DNA of 64,000 nt from a phage: sequence record PZ452595.1. One strand, given 5' to 3'. A model generated the notes under the pieces. The model did no database searches. It was not told the origin of the DNA and saw nothing but the letters and a program-made list of their open reading frames with translations. The translations under genes and the position numbers were made by a program. Position 1 is the stretch's first letter. Each line of letters starts with the position of its first letter. Shown in pieces: positions 23,325 to 34,189 of the stretch.

Positions 23325-23378
23325 TCCTCATGTTATGTCAGTAAGACTACTATAACACAACACGAGGGACTTGTAAAC
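23325..23378 (-). promoter_or_regulatory. Early promoter plus 5' UTR cassette, copy 1
   Basis: On the - strand: GTTTAC, 18-bp spacer, TGn-TATAGT, then GAGGA SD before the ATG; 54-bp near-identical copy at 39187..39240. Confidence 0.5.
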
Positions 23379-25435
23379 TACATTTTGAACTTTTTAGACA
23401 TTCCGTTGATGTTAACCAAAGAAGCCAAGATTTGAGAAACTTCGTTTTCCTCTTCTTTTGATTCTTCTACAAGGAATTGATTAAATCCAGCCATTGGACG
23501 AACTTCACCAGTTTCCATTAGATGGTCGCCATCATATACTGATTCTTCTAATTGTTCAGAAGGAGGAACGATTGTACCTTCGATTAGATACTTGTTATAA
23601 GCAGTTTCTTTCATAAAGTACGTACTTACTTTATTAATCTTCAGTAAAATTCCACGAGGTAGAATAACTTCAGCTTCTGATGGAAATCCTGATAAATGAC
23701 CTGGAACGATAACTTTGATTCGCTCAGCTCCTTTAATTACCATACCCACGCTAGTTTCAGCATCTTCATTAGCATATGTAGAATGACTACCCATATGCAT
23801 CAAATCTTCTGCATCAACAGAACCTTCTCCTTCGCCAGAAAATACCGCACCGGAATCATCTAAGGCCATATAGTTTTTACCATGCTCACCGAAGATATTT
23901 GGTTTAAGCGATGTGGATACGAAGTTCTTGAAATAGAACATTTTATTTTCAATATTATGACGTAAAGTTTTAAAGGTAACTTCTTGTCCACGATAAAGAG
24001 TAGTTCCTGGAGGAAGAACTGAACCTTTAGCGAATGCAGAATCCAACGTCTCGATGTGCTTAATAGCTCGTTCCATATATTCTTCACGGGTAGAATCTGG
24101 TTTACCCAAAAGGAACGAGTTCATTTCAACATATGAATCTGCACAATAATCTTCAATTACATCAGATTCAGCTTGAGTTAATCCTTTTGGAGTTACTTCG
24201 GTGCTTGCGTATTCATATGCCTGAGCAGCAGATTCATTAATCAATTTATAAATGCCATTCATGACAAATTGAATAATAGCTGTCTTTTCATCTGGCGTAG
24301 CTTTAGAACCTTTAACCAAATCATTGATAATTTTCTTAATAACATCAAAGCTATTAGAAATATTAATATCAGCAAGATCGCTTAAAATTTTATCAGTTTT
24401 ATAATCAAAGAATTCTTTATTCTTTAAATATTCTTGAGAACCTTGATATGTTATATCGCTCTGCAACTTGATAGATGGATCACGTAAACGCGCATGGGCT
24501 AATGCAATATGATTTCGGAAACTTTCTAGTTCATAATCGCTAGATTTAAAACGAGAAGCACTTCTCATACCACCGATAGCTCCTTTGCTGAAGTTTGAAC
24601 CAATCTGAATAACGCCAGAGTTCATTGGTCCTTCTGCTTTATATACCGGAACTTTAGATTCAAACTCTTGATATTTCTTAGCAGCGAAGCTATCACCCTG
24701 AAGTGAAGCATCGACAGTAGAATATTGAGCTTGTGCTGCTAATCGACGACTAATTTTAGTTTTTTGAATAACAGCTTGATCCGTGCGCTTATCATTTTCT
24801 AAAGCAATAGAAGCAGCAACAGCAACAGCTTTAGGAACAGCATTACCTGTTTTAACATCTACATAAACATCACCGACCTTTGATTCAACTTTTGTGAATA
24901 ACTCAGTTGAAATAGGAGGTACACCTGGAATGTCTTCTAAATTGGCATTTTTACGGTAAACCATAATATATGCGTACTTTTTATCATAGTCCCAGATTTC
25001 CTTTAAAAGAACATATCGACCTGCTCCTTTAGTACGTACTAAACGGTCAGCAATAACTTGCATTTGACGAGCTGCGCCATTTGTTTTACTCTTTAGTACG
25101 CGGAATAAGCATGCGTCAATTTTATACTGCTTCATTGTTTGAAGAGCAGTATCAAAAACAGCATTAATGACGCCAATTGGATTTCCACCCAAGTTTCTAA
25201 GCTTAACCAGCGATAATTTCTCGTTGACGCCTATCATTACGATATGCATCATTTTATCGCCTGGCTTAACGTTTTTATTTGTATCACCGCCAGAGGTGTA
25301 TGTACAAAATCTAAATCCAGGAAGCACACTTTCTTCGCCGGCTTGAATAGCAAAAATTTGTGGTATTTTATGCTTAGGATTTAAGTTAACAACCGGCGCC
25401 GAAGCGCCGTCAAATAATTCTGTAATAAGTTCCAT
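23378..25435 (-). CDS. alt: Alt-family ADP-ribosyltransferase, paralog 1
   Basis: 685 aa (T4 Alt is about 682 aa); C-terminal region carries ART-type R, STS and ExE motifs (YRGQ, FVSTSL, EAEVILPRG). Confidence 0.85.
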   Translation of the reverse strand: MELITELFDGASAPVVNLNPKHKIPQIFAIQAGEESVLPGFRFCTYTSGGDTNKNVKPGDKMMHIVMIGVNEKLSLVKLRNLGGNPIGVINAVFDTALQTMKQYKIDACLFRVLKSKTNGAARQMQVIADRLVRTKGAGRYVLLKEIWDYDKKYAYIMVYRKNANLEDIPGVPPISTELFTKVESKVGDVYVDVKTGNAVPKAVAVAASIALENDKRTDQAVIQKTKISRRLAAQAQYSTVDASLQGDSFAAKKYQEFESKVPVYKAEGPMNSGVIQIGSNFSKGAIGGMRSASRFKSSDYELESFRNHIALAHARLRDPSIKLQSDITYQGSQEYLKNKEFFDYKTDKILSDLADINISNSFDVIKKIINDLVKGSKATPDEKTAIIQFVMNGIYKLINESAAQAYEYASTEVTPKGLTQAESDVIEDYCADSYVEMNSFLLGKPDSTREEYMERAIKHIETLDSAFAKGSVLPPGTTLYRGQEVTFKTLRHNIENKMFYFKNFVSTSLKPNIFGEHGKNYMALDDSGAVFSGEGEGSVDAEDLMHMGSHSTYANEDAETSVGMVIKGAERIKVIVPGHLSGFPSEAEVILPRGILLKINKVSTYFMKETAYNKYLIEGTIVPPSEQLEESVYDGDHLMETGEVRPMAGFNQFLVEESKEEENEVSQILASLVNINGMSKKFKM

Positions 25436-25438
25436 GAT

Positions 25439-27535
25439 TTATCCTTGAACGAACTTGTAAGGCATGTTTGTAATATCTATGCAAGACGCAATAATTCCAA
25501 GAGATGATTCTACTTTCTGTTTAACATTTGATGAAACAAATGATGCAAAGTCAACTCTGTCTTCTATTTCAATATCACCTGTCATTGTAACTACTTCGCC
25601 GGTTTCCATTAGACGGTCACCGTCATAAATTACCGATTCGGTGAGTTCTTCCGTGGTCATAACTTCAGCTTGAATGAGTTTTGTATTATTAGATGTTGTT
25701 CCGTCATTATTAGAAGCATCGGTTATTTTATTAACTTTGACCATCAATCCGCGCGGTAGAATAACTTCAGCTTCTGTTGCTATTCCGAGACTTCCTGGAT
25801 ATACAACATTAACTTTATGTGCGCCGTCAATTGCCCATCCTATTTGAACTTTAACGTATTCAGGATTTTCTTTATACGCTCTTATTTCGTTTGGATTAAT
25901 AGTTATTCCTTCTTCATTTTTATCAACTGTTAATTCATTGCGAGCTTCTGGTTCTAAAAGACCAATACCAGCATGTGTAATTCCAAAACGTCCAAAAATG
26001 ATAGGAGTTAAAGAAGTAGATACAAAATTTCTGAAATAGAACACTTTATTTTTAACTAGCGCTTCGTATATAGGAGCAGTCATACTTTGAGCACGATAAA
26101 CTGTAATGCCTTCCGGTATACGGTCACCATTTTCAAAAGCTGAATCTAAATTATTTATAGCAGATTCAATTTCTTTTTCACTCATTACATCATATCGTTC
26201 TGGATTGTAACGACCTAAAAGAAGATTATTAATATCTGTATATCCTGAGCCACAATATTCTCTAATGCCGCGCTTTTGTGATGGAGTATATTTAGAACCA
26301 TCACGGGCAATAGTAATATCAATCATTGGGCCTGCACCAATTCCAGAAAAACTATAAATCATTCGTTTGAGGAATTTAGTTTTTGCCGCATTCCAGGCAT
26401 TTTTAGTTATTTCTCCCCAGACTTCATCTGACTGCCCTTTACGAGTTTTATTATGTTTATCAAGCCAATTATCTTTGTATTCTTCAAAGAATTTATTAAC
26501 AGCTGCTGCGTATTTCTCTAAACATTTTATTGAAGTAGTTGGTTCATTTTTGATTGCGTTAAAAATTACATCTTTAATTTTTTCTGAAACTTCATCAACC
26601 TCACTTTTTGAAAAGAATTTATAGTCATAGTGAAGTTCATTCGCAGTTCCTTCGGCAATAATTTTTGCTGCCTTAGTTTTAGAAGCTAATGAATTAATTC
26701 CAAGCTTCATTTCTTCTGCTTCGGGAATTAAAGGAGCGGTAGCAGGTTTATTGAAATTAGCTGCGGTAGATTCATACTTCTGGAATAATTCACTTTCAAA
26801 TCTAGAAGACTCTAACGATTGACTTTGTGCAATTGCTCTACGGGAAATTTTAACTTTAACGATTACAGCTTGGTCAGAACGTTTATCGTTTTCTTGTGCA
26901 ATAGATGCTGCAATTGCCTCATTTTTAGTTACTTGAGCCCCAGTATCTTTATTGATATAAACATCACCGACCTTCGATTCAACTTTAGTAAAGAGCTCGG
27001 TACTAATTTCCGGAACTCCTGGAATGTCTTCTAGTGATACATTTTTGCGATGTATAAGAATATATGCATACTTTTTATCATAATCCCAGAGTTCCTTAAG
27101 AAGGACGTATCTGCCACCTGAACGACTACGGATAAGTCTATCAGCAATAACTTGAATTTGTCGAGCTTGACCAGCGGTTTTAGACTTAAGAATACGAAGC
27201 ATACAGGCATCAATTTTATACTGACGCATTGTTTGCATCGCAACAGTAAAAACTGAATTGATATAATTAATTGGGCTTGGACCAAGACCTTTTAATTTAG
27301 CAATTGAACCTTTAGCAGTTAATGTAAAAGGAACAATATGCATCATTTTATCGCCCATTTTTAAATCGCGATTAGTATCACCTCCAGATGTATAGGTACA
27401 TAAACGAAAGCCTGGTTGTTCAATTGCATCATCAACGTGAACTGAAAAAATTTGCGGTATTTTCTTCTTTGGATTTAAGTTTGTAATCGGAAGAGTAGTA
27501 TCTTCGTCAAATAATTCTGTAATGAGTTCCATCAT
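25439..27535 (-). CDS. Alt-family ADP-ribosyltransferase, paralog 2
   Basis: 698 aa; N-terminal 230 aa roughly 60-65% identical to paralog 1 by eye; same R, STS and ExE motifs (YRAQ, FVSTSL, EAEVILPRG). Confidence 0.85.
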   Translation of the reverse strand: MMELITELFDEDTTLPITNLNPKKKIPQIFSVHVDDAIEQPGFRLCTYTSGGDTNRDLKMGDKMMHIVPFTLTAKGSIAKLKGLGPSPINYINSVFTVAMQTMRQYKIDACMLRILKSKTAGQARQIQVIADRLIRSRSGGRYVLLKELWDYDKKYAYILIHRKNVSLEDIPGVPEISTELFTKVESKVGDVYINKDTGAQVTKNEAIAASIAQENDKRSDQAVIVKVKISRRAIAQSQSLESSRFESELFQKYESTAANFNKPATAPLIPEAEEMKLGINSLASKTKAAKIIAEGTANELHYDYKFFSKSEVDEVSEKIKDVIFNAIKNEPTTSIKCLEKYAAAVNKFFEEYKDNWLDKHNKTRKGQSDEVWGEITKNAWNAAKTKFLKRMIYSFSGIGAGPMIDITIARDGSKYTPSQKRGIREYCGSGYTDINNLLLGRYNPERYDVMSEKEIESAINNLDSAFENGDRIPEGITVYRAQSMTAPIYEALVKNKVFYFRNFVSTSLTPIIFGRFGITHAGIGLLEPEARNELTVDKNEEGITINPNEIRAYKENPEYVKVQIGWAIDGAHKVNVVYPGSLGIATEAEVILPRGLMVKVNKITDASNNDGTTSNNTKLIQAEVMTTEELTESVIYDGDRLMETGEVVTMTGDIEIEDRVDFASFVSSNVKQKVESSLGIIASCIDITNMPYKFVQG

Positions 27536-27555
27536 ATCCTCTCTAGTGTTTATTC

Positions 27556-27563
27556 TATTTATA
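27556..27563 (-). promoter_or_regulatory. T4 late promoter motif TATAAATA upstream of the alt pair
   Basis: Reverse complement of TATAAATA about 20 nt upstream of the paralog 2 ATG. Confidence 0.55.
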
Positions 27564-27566
27564 AAA

Positions 27567-27588
27567 TTAAAGGCCCGAAGGCCTTTAA
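27567..27588 (-). terminator. Terminator hairpin (AAAGGCC-UUCG-GGCCUUU on the - strand)
   Basis: 9-bp stem overlapping the stop of the 62 aa ORF, upstream of the alt pair. Confidence 0.6.
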
Positions 27589-27773
27589 TAATCTATCGGT
27601 AAGAGAGTACGATATATTTCAAACTTTGGACCTTTTTCATAAGCATCAAAAGTTTCTGTGAATTTATTATAAGCATATGCATCAATAAATTCAATCATGA
27701 TTTGTGATACAGAAGTAGAAACATCTCCGCCTTCTTTTTGAGCCACAACAATTGTTTCTAAGTAAGCTTTCAT
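27585..27773 (-). CDS. Hypothetical protein
   Basis: 62 aa ORF overlapping the gene 30 stop by 4 nt. Confidence 0.5.
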   Translation of the reverse strand: MKAYLETIVVAQKEGGDVSTSVSQIMIEFIDAYAYNKFTETFDAYEKGPKFEIYRTLLPIDY

Positions 27774-29233
27774 AAACCAGTTACCTCATGAAAATCGCCA
27801 AATACATCTTCGAATGTATTAGCTTTAGTTTTATCTTCACGTAAACGAATCGCAATCGGAAGAAATAATTTAACGTAATCAGTGCGGCCATCGGATTTTA
27901 ACCAACCGTTGCATTCGCACTCTAGAATTTTTCCAATATAATAATTTTGGTTTTCCATAATGCGAGTACGGTCAAGTTCATGCGATTTTACACCGGCTTT
28001 ATCTTTTAAGCCTGAACCAGCATTTACTTTAATTTTTCCACACTCTGACTCAAGAATAAATCCACCTGCTTTAGTAGGGTCTTTACGGTGAGGATAAATT
28101 CCTACAATTTTTAAATCAACATCAATTACTTCTTTAAATTTATAGAGATTTTTTGAACGAGCATTTTCCCATAATCCATCAATATTTTTGAGAATAATAC
28201 CTTCAAGACCTTGGTCAATATACTTTTTATAAATTACCTTAGCTTCATCTAGGTTATTTACTACCTGGTTTTCAATTAAAATTACTTTATCATAGCCTGA
28301 TGTCATTTGTTCTAGTTTAGAAAAACGTACATCATATTTCAAACGAAATGCTGGAAGACCGTATATTTCTACTAATGGAACATAATCCCAGACCTGAAAC
28401 TTCATGCACCGTGCTTCTTTTTCTGAAATAGTTCCCTTTAAAGATTTATTGGCGATTCCATTAGAAGCAGTACGTGATTCAGCTACTTCTGTGAAGTCTT
28501 TAGCTTTACTGTTTTCAGGATGAGCATCAAAAAGAAAATCTAGGCCTTCTGGCTCCTTTTTAACTTGCTCATGGTATACCAATTCGCCATCAATCAACAC
28601 ACCTTCTGGATGAATCTGGCGGGCTTCAGCGGTCATTTTGATTAACTCTTCTTTAAGAAGATCTAATCCTAGATACTCATTACCGGCTCGTGATAAAAGA
28701 CGAACATCATCTAATTCATCACCTCTGACTTCAGCAAAGCACCGAGCTCCATCAGCTTTTAACTGGGCAAAAGCTGGAAATTTGATATTCTTATTAATGC
28801 CTTTTTCATCATAAGAACTTGCAAGCATTTGAGGTTGTTCAGGAATTAAACCTGGCCAAACTTTGTTTGCAATAGATACTGAAGCACCACATTCAAGGTC
28901 TCGCATCATCACTCGACGCAAAACTTCAACATCATCTTTTTTACCGTCAGTAATATAACCTACTAATTCCTCAATTGCTGCATTTCCAGTCAATTTCCGA
29001 GTAGCTAATGTAAATTCAATGAAGTCAAGCATATCGGTAAGAGTCAACATTCCAAAACTCTGGGTAGCAATACCAGGTTTAGGCCATTTCTTGATATAAT
29101 ACTGTAACCCACGAGAATAAGTCAGACGATATACCCGTTTAAGCAATTCATTATCTTTATTCTTTTCAAGAATTGCTTGTTTTTGTTTAGTTGAACCAAT
29201 AGATGCTATTTCATTCAGAATTTTAAGAATCAT
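27770..29233 (-). CDS. 30: ATP-dependent DNA ligase gp30
   Basis: 487 aa, same length as T4 DNA ligase; KxDG adenylation motif (AQLKADGARC). Confidence 0.97.
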   Translation of the reverse strand: MILKILNEIASIGSTKQKQAILEKNKDNELLKRVYRLTYSRGLQYYIKKWPKPGIATQSFGMLTLTDMLDFIEFTLATRKLTGNAAIEELVGYITDGKKDDVEVLRRVMMRDLECGASVSIANKVWPGLIPEQPQMLASSYDEKGINKNIKFPAFAQLKADGARCFAEVRGDELDDVRLLSRAGNEYLGLDLLKEELIKMTAEARQIHPEGVLIDGELVYHEQVKKEPEGLDFLFDAHPENSKAKDFTEVAESRTASNGIANKSLKGTISEKEARCMKFQVWDYVPLVEIYGLPAFRLKYDVRFSKLEQMTSGYDKVILIENQVVNNLDEAKVIYKKYIDQGLEGIILKNIDGLWENARSKNLYKFKEVIDVDLKIVGIYPHRKDPTKAGGFILESECGKIKVNAGSGLKDKAGVKSHELDRTRIMENQNYYIGKILECECNGWLKSDGRTDYVKLFLPIAIRLREDKTKANTFEDVFGDFHEVTGL

Positions 29234-29499
29234 TGTTCATCCTTCAGAGTTTGATTTACAGTTCTATTATAAATCAATTCATCATTAAGCTCAGTCAAAG
29301 ATCTATGATATGTAGTTCTAACTTTATTTCCTTGCATCCAGTGCTTGACGTAAATGAAACCTTGCTCTACGCATTTTTTAAAAATTCGTTCGTCTTTTTG
29401 AGCTCGGAATTCTGGATTGCATCTAAAAAATTGATTTACGTGACCGTAATCACGTGTAGTATTACCTTCATTTTCATAAATAGTATGAACGACAAACAT
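29230..29499 (-). CDS. Hypothetical protein (position of T4 30.1)
   Basis: 89 aa ORF with 4-nt overlap coupling to neighbours. Confidence 0.6.
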   Translation of the reverse strand: MFVVHTIYENEGNTTRDYGHVNQFFRCNPEFRAQKDERIFKKCVEQGFIYVKHWMQGNKVRTTYHRSLTELNDELIYNRTVNQTLKDEQ

Positions 29500-30335
29500 T
29501 AGAATGCTCCTTGGAAAATATTATCACCACAAGTAGGTCTATTATACAAATACTCTATGCCACCGGGTTTAATATAGTTCCATGTCTGAAACGGATGCGT
29601 CTGATATGGATGATATAGATTATAAGGATTAAATCCAGGAGTTCTCCAGGTAGTGTTCCAAGGAAAAGAATCGTTTTTAATCATCTTTTCAATTACATCT
29701 TTTATAGCTTTTTCACTATCAAAGCTTTCTTTATTTTCCTTTGGTGAAAAAAGCTTATTCTCTACATCGTTCCATGTATAAACTCGCTGAGCAGTTTTTG
29801 GAATATTGTCACGCTCTCCTCGAGCCATCCAATAAACAGGAACATTTAATATTTCACTCGCGTGATCGCAGTGGTGAGCGAGATCGTCAATATAACAAAT
29901 TACGTTATATTTCTCTTTTGCCTTTTTGAACAACTCTTCTTTTGAAGAATCATGACCACACATCATTACTTCTGAGAAGGCACCAGGAAAAAGAGCATTC
30001 AAATTAAATTGACGATTCAGCAGAGCGTCAATAGAATCACCCAGTGCTGTAACAGCTACAAAATTATAATCTTCTTTTAATTTGTTAATTACACACAGAG
30101 CATCTTTATATGGAGACAAGTAACGAATAAAATCCGAACGATTGTATTTTTCAATTAACTTGACGCCAAGTTCTTCATCACAATTAAAAAGTTTACCTGG
30201 AGAAATAAATTTCTCATCTTGGATCATTTTTAAAATATGTTCCAACGGAAGGTTATATTTCTGGGCAAAATAAGGAAGGCCTGATTGCCAGCTTAAACAT
30301 ACTCCATCAATATCAGTTAAAATAGTAGGCTTCAT
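29499..30335 (-). CDS. HAD-like hydrolase (position of T4 30.2)
   Basis: 278 aa; N-terminal DxDGV motif (LTDIDGVCL) typical of HAD-superfamily phosphatases/nucleotidases. Confidence 0.6.
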   Translation of the reverse strand: MKPTILTDIDGVCLSWQSGLPYFAQKYNLPLEHILKMIQDEKFISPGKLFNCDEELGVKLIEKYNRSDFIRYLSPYKDALCVINKLKEDYNFVAVTALGDSIDALLNRQFNLNALFPGAFSEVMMCGHDSSKEELFKKAKEKYNVICYIDDLAHHCDHASEILNVPVYWMARGERDNIPKTAQRVYTWNDVENKLFSPKENKESFDSEKAIKDVIEKMIKNDSFPWNTTWRTPGFNPYNLYHPYQTHPFQTWNYIKPGGIEYLYNRPTCGDNIFQGAF

Positions 30336-30796
30336 AGAGAGTCTCTTAATAGGTTTAACACATCAATAAATTCAGCTTCGGTTAGTATTGTATCATCTTT
30401 TGTTAGACCACTAGCCATGCTGTGCTTCAAAACTTTTCCTTTCGAGGCTTGTAATGCATCGCGAAAGCCCCTATTTTGGATCGCTGCTTCAAAATATGCA
30501 TTTGTGTATAATTCTTTCCACGCTGGGGAGTATCTTGAAAATGGAACTCCAAGCCAGAAGAGGGTCCCACGGTCCTGAGCTCTAGCATAAGACCTTCCAG
30601 CTTGTTGGGCGGCAAGCCCAGATAACCCAAATATACGACGTTGTTGTTCAACGTTTTTCACCTTGCATCCTTGGAGGAATCCTTCAAGACCTCCAAATTG
30701 AATACCATCCATAACGAAAGGCCAATGGGCGAAATTACTTAATGCGCATGATGGCCACCTAAAATTGCTTCTAATCTCTAACTCAGACATTTTCAA
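30332..30796 (-). CDS. NADAR-like (YbiA/DUF1768-like) protein (position of T4 30.3)
   Basis: 154 aa; N-terminal LSNFAHWPFVMDGIQF resembles the NADAR signature (SNFxxxP...DG); recalled similarity, not searched. Confidence 0.5.
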   Translation of the reverse strand: MKMSELEIRSNFRWPSCALSNFAHWPFVMDGIQFGGLEGFLQGCKVKNVEQQRRIFGLSGLAAQQAGRSYARAQDRGTLFWLGVPFSRYSPAWKELYTNAYFEAAIQNRGFRDALQASKGKVLKHSMASGLTKDDTILTEAEFIDVLNLLRDSL

Positions 30797-30989
30797 TGCT
30801 TATAATTTCAACATCAGCCCAATGACCATAGCAAGGAAGACGAAATTCAACTGGCCAGTTAGGGTCCTTTTCTAATATAATAGACTCAACTTGTGGTTCT
30901 TCGTGTTCATCAGTATACGGATTTTTATCTGTTACTTTATATGTGACCTTAATGTACTGAATTCCAAAAATCTTATTAATTATATTCAT
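30783..30989 (-). CDS. Hypothetical protein
   Basis: 68 aa ORF in the 30.x early cluster. Confidence 0.5.
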   Translation of the reverse strand: MNIINKIFGIQYIKVTYKVTDKNPYTDEHEEPQVESIILEKDPNWPVEFRLPCYGHWADVEIISIENV

Positions 30990-31183
30990 ACTAATTCCTT
31001 TAATCCGTAGATAGGAGATAATTCATCGCCCATATGAAGGTCTTCATTTCCATCTACCCAAGAAACAATATAAGCCTCTTTTACTTGAACATCTCCCAAT
31101 TTAAATGCGGGTAAAACCTTAGAAATTAATCCAGGTATACCAACTCCCTTTAATTCAACGGTTTGACCTAAAAAGAATTTCAT
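30986..31183 (-). CDS. Hypothetical protein
   Basis: 65 aa ORF in the 30.x early cluster. Confidence 0.5.
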   Translation of the reverse strand: MKFFLGQTVELKGVGIPGLISKVLPAFKLGDVQVKEAYIVSWVDGNEDLHMGDELSPIYGLKELV

Positions 31184-31470
31184 TAGAACCTCATCTGAAA
31201 CCCATGTGATTTAACATTACCGCCATTAATATCAGAACTATTAATTTCGCGTGCAATTGAGGGATCAATGTCAATTTCACGATTGAGTTTAGCGATAGCT
31301 AGAGTATCACGCCCATTTACAGTACGAAACTCTAAAGGGCAGACTGCATTAACATAGTTTTTAATCGATTCACTGGTAGGTTGCAAATGAGCAGGAAGGT
31401 CTTTAGGCGCCTTAGAGAAAACCACTTCACAGAAATTTTTGCGGGTATCAAAATAAGTAGTCATAAACAT
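31183..31470 (-). CDS. Hypothetical protein
   Basis: Track ORF 31183..31521 runs through a terminator hairpin; the ATG at 31470 with SD GAGGAAA gives 95 aa. Confidence 0.55.
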   Translation of the reverse strand: MFMTTYFDTRKNFCEVVFSKAPKDLPAHLQPTSESIKNYVNAVCPLEFRTVNGRDTLAIAKLNREIDIDPSIAREINSSDINGGNVKSHGFQMRF

Positions 31471-31486
31471 AGTATTTTCCTCAGTA

Positions 31487-31502
31487 AGGGGCCGAAGCCC
31501 CT
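31487..31502 (-). terminator. Terminator hairpin (aggggc-UUCG-gcccct), identical to the hoc terminator
   Basis: Same 16-mer as 10970..10985, just after the stop of the upstream ORF. Confidence 0.55.
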
Positions 31503-31510
31503 GTTTTATT

Positions 31511-31876
31511 TTAAATATCAAATTCGTTAAGAACTACATCAAAGATTGCTTCAAGATGCTCAGGTTTAGCTCTGTTACTCAAAATATGACGAATCCAAGT
31601 TTTAACCAGAAGCTTACGATTGACGCCATTCCAGCAAGGATGAGTCCCTAAATCACGTTGACGAAAATCATCATCTAATGCGATTTTAAAAGAAGAACCT
31701 TCTTTCGTGATTGAAACCGTGATGCCATTTTCAAATCGCATATAAACGTAGTTAGGAGTCATATACTGTTCAATTTCGCATACTGATCCATTTTGATGTT
31801 TCCAAAGGCAGATAGTATCAATAGAACCTGCAATACCGTTAGAAACATATTTACGTTCAAAGTTGATGTAGTTCAT
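31511..31876 (-). CDS. Hypothetical protein
   Basis: 121 aa ORF. Confidence 0.6.
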   Translation of the reverse strand: MNYINFERKYVSNGIAGSIDTICLWKHQNGSVCEIEQYMTPNYVYMRFENGITVSITKEGSSFKIALDDDFRQRDLGTHPCWNGVNRKLLVKTWIRHILSNRAKPEHLEAIFDVVLNEFDI

Positions 31877-31944
31877 TTTTATTCTCCGAGATGTTTAATT
31901 GCGGTACAGATATATAATATCATATCTTGTACCAAAGTAAACAA

Positions 31945-32277
31945 TTATTTTACTACTTTCCAATGCTTCATGTCAAGTTTACCAACTTTTTTCATCTTCT
32001 CAATTAAGCGTTCGGCATGTTGGCGAGCTGTAACATAATACCATTCACCTAATTCATTTTGTTCAATTTTTCCAACGATTACTGTATTCAATTCATAAAT
32101 CCAACCAGTAAAGAAATTATGAACTTGGATTGTAAAGGTGAAATCTGTTCCCATACCTTCTGTTGTTTCTACTTCAATAATATCACCTTCAACTGCCATT
32201 AAGAACCACATAGTTTCATCATATTTACCATTGAAGCATTTAGTTTTAACTGTAGCGTTCAGATTAATCGTTTTCAT
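31945..32277 (-). CDS. Hypothetical protein
   Basis: 110 aa ORF with putative early promoter upstream. Confidence 0.6.
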   Translation of the reverse strand: MKTINLNATVKTKCFNGKYDETMWFLMAVEGDIIEVETTEGMGTDFTFTIQVHNFFTGWIYELNTVIVGKIEQNELGEWYYVTARQHAERLIEKMKKVGKLDMKHWKVVK

Positions 32278-32304
32278 TTTATTCTCCTTTGTTTGTGTAA
32301 GATA

Positions 32305-32334
32305 ATACTATCACAAAGGAACCGTACTGTAAAC
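32305..32334 (-). promoter_or_regulatory. Putative sigma70-type early promoter
   Basis: On the - strand: GTTTAC (plus 32329..32334), 18-bp spacer, TGA-TAGTAT (plus 32305..32310); same architecture as the duplicated cassette. Confidence 0.4.
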
Positions 32335-32363
32335 AACTTTGTGCAATCTTTGGAAAATAAAAA

Positions 32364-32383
32364 AGGACTCCCGAAGGAGTCCT
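32364..32383 (-). terminator. Strong Rho-independent terminator (AGGACUCC-UUCG-GGAGUCCU then U-run on the - strand)
   Basis: Perfect 8-bp GC-rich stem, tetraloop and T-tract just after the stop at 32388. Confidence 0.75.
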
Positions 32384-32387
32384 CAAC

Positions 32388-32564
32388 TTATGCTTTCTGC
32401 TTACCAAAACGAGAAGCATCATCTCGAAGAACCGCACGTGCTCGGCGCATGATCTTCTCAACAGTTTGATTGATACGAGAGTTCGACCCACGCTTGTAAC
32501 CAGCGCGTTTAGAATCACCAACTTTCTTTTCAACTGCTTTCTTTGCTTTAGCTTGTTTTGCCAT
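32388..32564 (-). CDS. Small basic protein
   Basis: Track ORF 32388..32606; ATG at 32564 gives 58 aa (MAKQAKAKKAVEKK...), lysine/arginine-rich. Confidence 0.5.
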   Translation of the reverse strand: MAKQAKAKKAVEKKVGDSKRAGYKRGSNSRINQTVEKIMRRARAVLRDDASRFGKQKA

Positions 32565-32852
32565 TATAAATTCTCTTTTAAATGAAAATGCAGGACTTAT
32601 TGGCATTGCCTGCGCAAGCCCTCAAGGGGAACATAGGTTTTGAATATTTACCGACAGGATAACCATAAACCTCGTCAACATACCACCAAGACTTACACAG
32701 ATAACACTTTTCTGACGCATGATAGTAACATTCAAGAGGTACACCATAAAACTGCCGGGGTCTTAAAACTATAATGATTCGCAAATCATTAATCAGACAG
32801 TTCGATGGCTCCTCGATTTTAGCTCACACTAAGGCAGTGAATCTCCAATAAA

Positions 32853-33101
32853 TTACTTCAGTGTTACCACAAAGTGACGAACTGCTTTTCGTGCAGCAGA
32901 AGCCAAAGGCTTAGCATATTTAAGTTCATCTTTTTCCTGAAGCTCAGCAGCTAATGCAGTTTGAGCAGGATTCAGATGTTTGAAATAACGCAGGATTTCA
33001 AGAGCTTCGGCTTCAACATCAATAGATGCGCCATAGTTTTCGTGACCATTATTCCATGCGTTTCGTTGCAGTTCAAGAGCGTGTTGTAATTGTTTAATCA
33101 T
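32853..33101 (-). CDS. rIII: rIII lysis inhibition accessory protein
   Basis: 82 aa, same length and position as T4 rIII. Confidence 0.8.
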   Translation of the reverse strand: MIKQLQHALELQRNAWNNGHENYGASIDVEAEALEILRYFKHLNPAQTALAAELQEKDELKYAKPLASAARKAVRHFVVTLK

Positions 33102-33240
33102 TTAAAAATTCTCGTTAGAGATTAAAACTCGGTAGTCACGTTCTTCTGAATTTCATCTTCTTTCGACAGATCTCTCAGTTGTAGACTACCACATAGAATT
33201 GTTCGGTTAACTTATTATTCCGACACCCAATTCATATTAT

Positions 33241-33248
33241 TATTTATA
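33241..33248 (-). promoter_or_regulatory. T4 late promoter motif TATAAATA upstream of rIII
   Basis: Reverse complement of TATAAATA in the gene 31-rIII intergenic region. Confidence 0.35.
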
Positions 33249-33584
33249 TCACTTATAAAGACACGGAATAGCTTTATAGTGACAGGTAACGAATTTTTGT
33301 TTAATTTCTTTTGGCTGCTTAAGACCCAGAGCTACAAAAGGATGCGGAACATTTCGAATTTGACCAACTGGAAGAGAAGTCAAATCACCAACTTCGCAGA
33401 AACCTTCAGGAACATCAGGACCGACAGAGTGAACTACACACAGTTCAGGAACTTCACCTTGGACACGTTTACCGATAATAAGTCCTGATTCTGTAACTTC
33501 TTCATCACCCGCCTGTGCGGGTTCAGAAACTAAAATAACATATTCACCGACAGCACGAATTGGTAGCTGTTGTACTTCAGACAT
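33249..33584 (-). CDS. 31: Head assembly co-chaperonin gp31 (GroES-like)
   Basis: 111 aa, same length as T4 gp31. Confidence 0.93.
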
Positions 33585-33614
33585 TGTTTTTCCTTTTTGT
33601 TAACAGATGAATTA

Positions 33615-33639
33615 ATAATAACAAATAATTCTTAAAGCA
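33615..33639 (-). promoter_or_regulatory. Putative MotA-dependent middle promoter for gene 31
   Basis: On the - strand: exact MotA box TGCTTTA (plus 33633..33639), 12-bp spacer, -10 TATTAT, then SD AAGGAAA before the gene 31 ATG. Confidence 0.5.
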
Positions 33640-33640
33640 T

Positions 33641-33949
33641 TTATTTACCAATAAATTGAAGCAAATGCTCAACTTTCATACCATTAACGGAAATCAATTT
33701 GTCAATAGAAAAACCTCGCCATGCACCAAGCTCAACATCAAATACTGGAATCATATCAGTAGATTCTTTCCGAGTAGATTCAGTTAATTTACCAGTTTGC
33801 ATGGTTGGCATAAAGTCTGCGTCACGAGTACCTTTCATAGTACGAATAGTACCATCAGACTTTTCAAAAACTACGTTTGAAACACCCATGGACAATTTAG
33901 TTTTCAAAATTTCACGAATTGCTACTTTCTGCTCAGTTGTCAGTTTCAT
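33641..33949 (-). CDS. Hypothetical protein (position of T4 31.1)
   Basis: 102 aa ORF. Confidence 0.6.
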   Translation of the reverse strand: MKLTTEQKVAIREILKTKLSMGVSNVVFEKSDGTIRTMKGTRDADFMPTMQTGKLTESTRKESTDMIPVFDVELGAWRGFSIDKLISVNGMKVEHLLQFIGK

Positions 33950-34189
33950 TTATTTACCTATCACAGTTTTAATATGAGTTGTTCCACGTTCTTTAAGGGT
34001 GGAAAGTAATTTTTGGCATTTTTCTAAATCAGATTTCCAACTATATGGTCTATCAATACTAGTCCAATCAGTTTTATAATACTGTTTCCATTTAGAGAAA
34101 AAATATTTCTTATACTCTACAGCAAATGAGATGTTCTCATTAGAATAAGAACTAATTGCTGTGAGCTTTACCAAACGAAATTTCATCAT
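33950..34189 (-). CDS. Hypothetical protein (position of T4 31.2)
   Basis: 79 aa ORF. Confidence 0.55.
   Translation of the reverse strand: MMKFRLVKLTAISSYSNENISFAVEYKKYFFSKWKQYYKTDWTSIDRPYSWKSDLEKCQKLLSTLKERGTTHIKTVIGK

What the first reader, a model, noticed from the sequence alone, without database searches (positions are those of the whole stretch)
29499..30796. NADAR-like and HAD-like genes immediately downstream of DNA ligase, near the ADP-ribosyltransferase pair
The 154 aa ORF has an N-terminal segment (LSNFAHWPFVMDGIQF) resembling the NADAR / YbiA signature; this family processes ADP-ribose adducts, including removal of ADP-ribose from DNA bases. The adjacent 278 aa ORF has a HAD-type DxDGV motif. 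A NADAR enzyme in a phage that also injects ADP-ribosyltransferases could reverse host DNA ADP-ribosylation defences or tune the phage's own modifications.
Basis: inference. Interest (0 to 1): 0.55.

Follow-up and report, generated by a model that had tools for sequence, protein, structure and literature searches.

The report
T4 adfN (NADAR) plus HAD phosphatase
The two genes are T4 genes 30.3 and 30.2: the first is the already published enzyme AdfN, which strips ADP-ribose off phage DNA to defeat the bacterial DarTG1 defence, and the second is an ordinary-looking, non-essential HAD-family phosphatase whose substrate is still unknown.

Summary
The window is a T4/T6-like Tequatrovirus. The interval holds minus-strand genes 30.3 and 30.2.

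**Gene 30.3 (30332-30790, 152 aa).** It is 149/152 identical to T4 gp30.3, published as AdfN. AdfN is a NADAR-fold DNA ADP-ribosylglycohydrolase that is necessary and sufficient against DarTG1 (Nat Commun 2025;16:1598; Toxins 2024;16:208; HIDEN-SEQ TnSeq). My checks agree:
- It hits Pfam PF08010, not NADAR, directly. But 16/40 relatives hit NADAR and the family profile hits YbiA.
- The three best solved-structure matches of the AlphaFold model (pLDDT 93) are the NADAR structures.
- E36, K43 and the phage-type H123 are conserved.

**Gene 30.2 (29499-30335, 278 aa).** It is a HAD phosphatase with all four motifs and a helical cap.
- Its nearest relatives are NT5C-type 5'(3')-deoxyribonucleotidases.
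- Published T4 TnSeq shows it is non-essential and irrelevant to DarTG1 (log2FC -0.12, against -7.25 for 30.3).
- In 60 related loci it always sits next to the ligase. The NADAR is adjacent in only 20.

No link to the Alt ADP-ribosyltransferases is supported.

The parts
30332..30790 (-). Gene 30.3 = adfN.
   Evidence: PF08010 at 1.7e-69. 149/152 identical to T4 gp30.3. Model pLDDT 93. Top folds are YbiA 2b3w, 8bau and 8bat. E36 and H123 invariant, K43 at least 90% conserved. Published function.
29499..30335 (-). Gene 30.2. HAD-superfamily phosphatase with a C1 helical cap (core about residues 1-200) and a low-confidence Pro/aromatic-rich C-terminal tail (about 200-278). NT5C-like; substrate unknown.
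30783..30989 (-). Gene 30.4 (68 aa, unknown function). Its stop overlaps the 30.3 ATG by 8 nt (ATGTCTGA).
   Evidence: phrog_2042 at 4e-35. Junction sequence. It is the second of only two significant genes in the T4 DarTG1 TnSeq (log2FC -1.79, padj 0.014).
29230..29499 (-). Gene 30.1 (DUF3045, 89 aa), between 30.2 and the ligase. It overlaps 30.2 by 1 nt (TAATG) and the ligase by 4 nt (ATGA).
   Evidence: PF11243 at 1.5e-63. Junctions.
27770..29233 (-). Gene 30, ATP-dependent DNA ligase. It is the invariant downstream neighbour of gene 30.2.
   Evidence: PF01068 at 6.9e-33. The ligase lies within 800 nt downstream of the 30.2 homologue in 60/60 related loci.
31947..31976 (-). Best sigma-70-like promoter match upstream of the 30.7-30 gene string (TTGACA-18-TAAAAT). 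Candidate early promoter only.
   Evidence: 11/12 consensus match. The total count of such matches does not exceed shuffles, so this is weak evidence.

Best explanation
The interval contains two translationally coupled genes of a T-even phage.

Gene 30.3 encodes AdfN, a minimal NADAR-fold enzyme. Host DarT1 ADP-ribosylates guanine bases in phage DNA and blocks replication. AdfN hydrolyses the base-ribose bond, using Glu36, Lys43 and the clade-specific His123 in the last strand. This releases ADP-ribose and restores a replicable template. It acts as an orphan copy of the DarG1 antitoxin. For this window, identity to T4 AdfN, the fold and the catalytic residues are shown here; activity is taken from published work on the 98%-identical T4 protein.

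Gene 30.2 encodes a HAD phosphatase (Asp8 nucleophile, Asp10 acid/base, Thr96, Lys132, Asp150/151) with a closed helical cap. That architecture points to a small-molecule substrate. It is most probably a (deoxy)nucleoside monophosphate, because the nearest characterised relatives are 5'(3')-deoxyribonucleotidases. The fold and motifs are shown; the substrate is inferred. Gene 30.2 is dispensable in the laboratory and does not take part in the anti-DarTG1 function. Its constant partner is the DNA ligase gene, not the NADAR gene.
For: AdfN: (family, residues, fold, 98% identity to T4). Published genetics and biochemistry: Nat Commun 2025;16:1598; Toxins 2024;16:208; Toxins 2026;18:82: T4 phage NADAR hydrolyses G-ADPr; HIDEN-SEQ: 30.3 log2FC -7.25, padj 0 under DarTG1. 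The allele here is full length, with the C-terminal helix 138-151 intact, unlike the truncated RB69 allele.

gp30.2: invariant HAD motif residues. HAD fold. NT5C is the most frequent Pfam hit among relatives, 39/84, best 4.2e-10; one distant member exceeds the NT5C gathering score. The family profile matches the putative 5'(3')-deoxyribonucleotidase 3bwv over its full length at E=1.7e-6, followed by other nucleotide phosphatases. W16, at least 90% conserved, aligns with the Phe after motif I of mouse cdN. Non-essential, 72/72 TA sites hit. No effect under DarTG1 or DarTG2. Ligase adjacent in 60/60 loci; NADAR adjacent in 20/60.
Confidence: 0.85

Rival explanations
1. gp30.2 is a functional partner of AdfN. 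It might process the released ADP-ribose or ribose-5-phosphate, or be the unidentified T-even factor that Johannesman et al. suggest is needed for full AdfN activity.
For: The genes are adjacent and overlap by ATGA. The published discussion proposes an additional T-even factor. The NADAR-HAD-ligase order recurs in Acinetobacter phages.
Against: T4 insertions in 30.2 are not depleted under DarTG1 (log2FC -0.12, p=0.61), while 30.3 drops by -7.25. The NADAR is directly adjacent to the HAD gene in only 20/60 related loci and is absent from the flank in 32/60. Ectopic AdfN alone fully rescues RB69.
Confidence: 0.04
2. gp30.2 is a DNA-end 3'-phosphatase (PNKP-like) that prepares nicks for the adjacent ligase.
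For: The ligase lies within 800 nt downstream in 60/60 loci. There is a weak hit to the PHROG polynucleotide kinase family (E=0.002). 1/84 relatives hit HAD_PNKP. A jumbo-phage homologue sits beside clamp loader and polymerase genes.
Against: A roughly 75-residue helical C1 cap (helices 16-86) normally restricts HAD enzymes to small molecules; macromolecule-acting HADs are capless (established HAD classification, from knowledge). NT5C hits far outnumber PNKP hits, 39 against 1. T4-like phages already carry PseT. Insertions are fully tolerated although the ligase is essential.
Confidence: 0.1
3. AdfN reverses or tunes ADP-ribosylation made by the phage's own Alt-type transferases encoded nearby.
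For: Only proximity: about 3 kb from the two Alt-like genes.
Against: Reported NADAR substrates are ADP-ribosylated guanine and cytosine bases in DNA or RNA, whereas Alt is annotated as an RNA-polymerase (protein) ADP-ribosyltransferase. Insertions in alt are neutral under DarTG1. In many relatives the NADAR gene is not in this neighbourhood while alt still is.
Confidence: 0.03

Closest known systems
T4 AdfN (gp30.3), anti-DarT factor NADAR; Pfam PF08010 Phage_30_3
   Same: 149/152 identical and the same length. It has the same E36, K43 and H123, the same gene order (30.4-30.3-30.2-30.1-30), and the same 8-nt overlap with 30.4.
   Different: Three substitutions (Q22H, K107R, I125M), none at catalytic positions. 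Activity of this exact allele is untested.
DarG1 antitoxin (DarT1-associated NADAR, e.g. Geobacter lovleyi 8bat)
   Same: The same fold and catalytic Glu/Lys, and the same reaction: removal of ADP-ribose from guanine in DNA.
   Different: There is no cognate DarT toxin gene and no N-terminal extension. The last-strand acidic residue (Asp in DarG1) is His here. T4 AdfN did not rescue DarT1 toxicity in uninfected cells.
E. coli YbiA (2b3w), YbiA-type NADAR
   Same: It is the best structural match (Foldseek E=3.3e-5, TM 0.66). A sequence-profile match covers the SNFA...E..FQ..K motif.
   Different: 18% identity. YbiA has Glu in the last strand and a housekeeping role in riboflavin metabolism.
NT5C family 5'(3')-deoxyribonucleotidases (mouse/human cdN and mdN; S. 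epidermidis 3bwv)
   Same: HAD core with a C1 cap. Motif I is DxDGV followed by an aromatic residue eight positions after the nucleophile. Motifs II-IV are present. The family profile hits 3bwv at E=1.7e-6.
   Different: Only 16-21% identity. The protein itself is below Pfam thresholds. It carries a family-specific invariant R108/N111 segment and an extra roughly 80-residue, low-confidence C-terminal tail. Its substrate is unknown.

Membership tests
NADAR superfamily | YbiA fold (helical core flanked by small sheets) | tested here: met
   AF2 model pLDDT 93.3, pTM 0.88. The only confident PDB matches are YbiA 2b3w, PnNADAR 8bau and Geobacter NADAR 8bat, probability 0.98-1.00.
NADAR superfamily | Catalytic Glu and Lys that contact ADP-ribose (E36 and K43 in T4 AdfN) | tested here: met
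   E36 is invariant and K43 at least 90% conserved in 40 relatives. Both align with the Glu and Lys of YbiA. Their mutation impairs T4 AdfN.
NADAR superfamily | Charged catalytic residue in the last beta-strand (Glu in YbiA type, Asp in DarG1 type, His in phage type) | tested here: met
   H123 is invariant and lies in the last strand, 120-123, of the model. The phage-type His is described.
NADAR superfamily | Significant match to the Pfam NADAR model PF08719 | tested here: inconclusive
   This protein has no hit at E<=1, but 16/40 family members hit it, best 1.5e-7.
NADAR superfamily | ADP-ribosylglycohydrolase activity on guanine-ADP-ribose | not testable with these tools
   Published for the 98%-identical T4 protein in vitro and in vivo.
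DarG1 antitoxin of a DarTG1 operon | Encoded next to a DarT1 toxin; N-terminal extension before the NADAR core | tested here: not met
   The neighbours are 30.4 and 30.2, with no ART beside it. The protein is the 152 aa core only. It is therefore an orphan antitoxin-like enzyme, not a DarG1.
HAD superfamily phosphatase | Motif I DxD (nucleophile plus Asp+2 acid/base), motif II Thr/Ser, motif III Lys, motif IV DD | tested here: met
   D8, D10 and K132 are invariant. T96, D150 and D151 are at least 90% conserved in 36 relatives. D8, D10 and K132 remain invariant in 84 more distant relatives.
HAD superfamily phosphatase | Rossmann-like HAD core fold with a cap inserted after motif I (C1) | tested here: met
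NT5C 5'(3')-deoxyribonucleotidase family (PF06941) | Match to the family model | tested here: inconclusive
   This protein does not hit it. 6/36 close and 39/84 distant relatives do. The family profile hits 3bwv at E=1.7e-6.
NT5C 5'(3')-deoxyribonucleotidase family (PF06941) | Dephosphorylation of deoxynucleoside monophosphates | not testable with these tools
   No biochemical data found.

The most novel reading that the evidence does not exclude
Gene 30.2 encodes a nucleotide phosphatase that works with the DNA ligase or replication module rather than with AdfN. It might remove a nucleotide by-product, or a nucleotide made by a host defence. It is one of the most widely conserved uncharacterised genes of Straboviridae: it was next to the ligase in all 60 loci examined, and 1432 family clusters were found. 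A smaller point also remains open: whether the DarTG1-specific depletion of insertions in the tiny upstream gene 30.4 reflects a real accessory role for AdfN or only polarity.
Probability: 0.15. Interest if true: 0.45.

Novelty: already known. Interest (0 to 1): 0.15.

Why it matters
AdfN is a good example of a lytic phage carrying an orphan antitoxin-like enzyme to undo a DNA-modifying defence. That story was published in 2023-2025, so this window adds only another intact allele. The residual value lies in gene 30.2. It is a well-conserved, confidently folded HAD phosphatase with no known substrate. Published TnSeq data and my synteny count separate it from AdfN and tie it to the ligase gene instead.

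Tried and rejected
- Direct single-sequence searches gave nothing beyond the phage-specific families: Pfam, NCBIfam, PADLOC and PDB sequences.
- Rfam found no RNA family in 27000-34000.
- A MotA-box middle-promoter pattern has no match between 29032 and 33614, so none lies close upstream of 30.3 or 30.2. Sigma-70-like matches do not exceed shuffles.
- Longer gp30.2 relatives were scanned for informative fusion partners. None had a Pfam domain outside the HAD part.
- No paper holds 'gp30.2', and a numeric search for the gene names returned only unrelated papers. A search for phage deoxyribonucleotidases gave nothing on T4 30.2.
- I considered 30.4 as an obligate AdfN partner and rejected it. 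15 loci have the NADAR without a 30.4-like ORF, and 11 have a 30.4-like ORF without a local NADAR.
- I considered the T4-annotated internal ORF 30.3' as a real gene and rejected it.

Full report
**What the window is.** Megablast of 29000-31200 and of 25000-34000 finds hundreds of Tequatrovirus genomes at 95-99% identity, including T6, T4-like isolates and Shigella phage Sf22. Against the T4 reference annotation the minus-strand gene order is:

| Gene | Window coordinates |
|---|---|
| 30.4 | 30783-30989 |
| 30.3 | 30332-30790 |
| 30.2 | 29499-30335 |
| 30.1 | 29230-29499 |
| 30 (DNA ligase) | 27770-29233 |
| alt.1 | 27585-27773 |
| Alt-like gene 1 | 25439-27535 |
| Alt-like gene 2 | 23378-25435 |

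**The observation.** Both ORFs and both quoted motifs are present. They are true genes. The first hits PF08010 at 1.7e-69 and the second hits phrog_420 at 3.2e-93. Of 14 substitutions relative to T4 in gene 30.3, 13 fall on third codon positions.

T4 annotates the ATG two codons later (152 aa), and the published residue numbering E36/K43 fits that start. The genes are upstream of the ligase in transcription order, not downstream, and 30.1 lies between them and the ligase. Consecutive genes overlap: ATGTCTGA at 30.4/30.3, ATGA at 30.3/30.2, TAATG at 30.2/30.1 and ATGA at 30.1/30. They are therefore probably translated as a coupled string.

**Gene 30.3 is AdfN, a NADAR.** The protein alone does not reach the Pfam NADAR model, PDB sequences, NCBIfam or PADLOC. 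More sensitive tests all agree:
- In an alignment of 40 relatives down to 35% identity, E36 and H123 are invariant and K43 is at least 90% conserved.
- 16 of the 40 hit PF08719 NADAR, best 1.5e-7.
- The family profile hits E. coli YbiA at E=0.0054, with the Glu and Lys aligned.
- An AlphaFold2 model has pLDDT 93.3. Its only confident solved-structure matches are YbiA (E=3.3e-5), Phytophthora NADAR with ADP-ribose (8bau) and Geobacter NADAR (8bat).
- H123 sits in the last strand of the model. The literature places the family-distinguishing catalytic residue there: Glu in the YbiA type, Asp in the DarG1 type and His in phage NADARs.

The window protein is 149/152 identical to T4 gp30.3 and is full length. 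It lacks the RB69 frameshift that removes the C-terminal helix.

**Published work on T4 gp30.3.**
- Johannesman et al. (Nat Commun 2025;16:1598) mapped DarTG1 resistance to gene 30.3 by phage crosses and renamed it adfN. Ectopic AdfN fully rescues RB69 on DarTG1. In the final version E36A and K43A gave only partial rescue. The purified protein removes ADP-ribose from DarT1-modified DNA.
- Independent in vitro work shows that the T4 phage NADAR reverses guanine ADP-ribosylation but not thymidine ADP-ribosylation.
- A T4 transposon screen (HIDEN-SEQ) found 30.3 non-essential on K-12 but completely depleted under DarTG1: log2FC -7.25, adjusted p 0.

**Gene 30.2 is a HAD phosphatase, probably nucleotidase-like.** No Pfam model hits the protein itself. 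In 36 relatives D8, D10 and K132 are invariant, and T96, D150 and D151 are at least 90% conserved. These are the four HAD motifs, including the Asp+2 residue typical of phosphatases.

Sequence evidence does separate them:
- An exhaustive profile search finds 1432 family clusters.
- Among 84 distant members, 39 hit Pfam NT5C (best 4.2e-10), against 18 for the generic HAD model.
- The family profile aligns over the full length of the putative 5'(3')-deoxyribonucleotidase 3bwv at E=1.7e-6. Other nucleotide phosphatases and the mitochondrial and cytosolic deoxyribonucleotidases follow.
- W16 aligns with the Phe that follows motif I in mouse cdN. From memory of the cdN/mdN structures, that residue stacks on the base. 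I did not verify this here.

Some GenBank records already call the homologue 'HAD-like protein', 'putative phosphatase' or '5' nucleotidase'. I found no experimental study.

**Are the two genes a functional pair?** The evidence says no.
- In the T4 screen 30.2 tolerates insertions at 72 of 72 sites.
- Under DarTG1 its log2FC is -0.12 (p=0.61), and under DarTG2 it is 0.00.
- In 60 related viral loci the ligase lies within 800 nt downstream of the 30.2 homologue in all 60. A NADAR gene is directly upstream in 20, elsewhere within 6 kb in 8, and absent from the flank in 32.
- In Aeromonas phage 31 the order is 30.2 then ligase, with no NADAR beside them. In Acinetobacter phage DLP2 the order is YbiA-like, HAD-like, ligase.
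- A jumbo Pseudomonas phage homologue sits beside clamp-loader and polymerase genes.

The stable association is with the ligase and replication genes. Because gene order is broadly conserved in this virus family, that is only weak evidence of functional coupling.

**No link to Alt.** The two Alt-like genes are real. However, insertions in alt are neutral under DarTG1, and published NADAR substrates are nucleic-acid bases.

**Verdict.** The NADAR part is already known in detail. The HAD part is a new member of a very well-known superfamily with an unknown, dispensable role.

Noticed in passing
window 30783-30989 (-), gene 30.4: In the published T4 TnSeq under DarTG1, exactly two genes are significant: 30.3 and this 68 aa ORF (log2FC -1.79, padj 0.014). 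Its stop overlaps the adfN ATG, so polarity is the simplest explanation. Yet insertions in 30.1, just upstream of the essential ligase, are fully tolerated. Co-occurrence with the NADAR is not strict.
   Followed up: partly
window 30427-30654 (-), T4 'gene 30.3-prime': T4 annotates this internal out-of-frame ORF as a gene. Here its ATG is ACG. The synonymous changes in the 30.3 frame cause 8 amino-acid changes in the 30.3' frame, so it is probably not a real gene.
   Followed up: yes
window 23378-25435 and 25439-27535 (-): There are two full-length tandem Alt-like ADP-ribosyltransferases, 42% identical. They are conserved over roughly the first 240 residues and in the ART domain but divergent in between. 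T4 keeps only fragments of the second copy, alt.-1 and alt.-2.
   Followed up: partly
window 29499-29735 (-), gp30.2 residues about 200-278: This is a low-confidence, Pro/Trp/Tyr-rich C-terminal tail. It is absent from many homologues of about 200 aa, but several genera share a short 'G-IEYLxxQPT' motif. It may be a docking peptide; its function is unknown.
   Followed up: no
L003 (Vibrio phage 6E35-1b) 919-4576: A distant gp30.2 homologue lies about 1.5 kb from a nicotinamide phosphoribosyltransferase gene, on the opposite strand. This is a possible hint of NAD or nucleotide salvage. It is a single case.
   Followed up: no
window 32363-32384 (-): A strong terminator-like hairpin (9 bp stem, GAGGACTCC-TTCG-GGAGTCCTT plus a T-run) lies between genes 30.9 and 30.8. 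It is followed by the best sigma-70-like promoter match at 31947-31976. Together these may define the start of the 30.7-to-ligase early transcript.
   Followed up: no
literature (PMC11125620, methods): The Toxins 2024 paper lists its T4 gp30.3 construct as residues 1-208, whereas the annotated T4 protein and this one are 152 aa. The discrepancy is unexplained.
   Followed up: no
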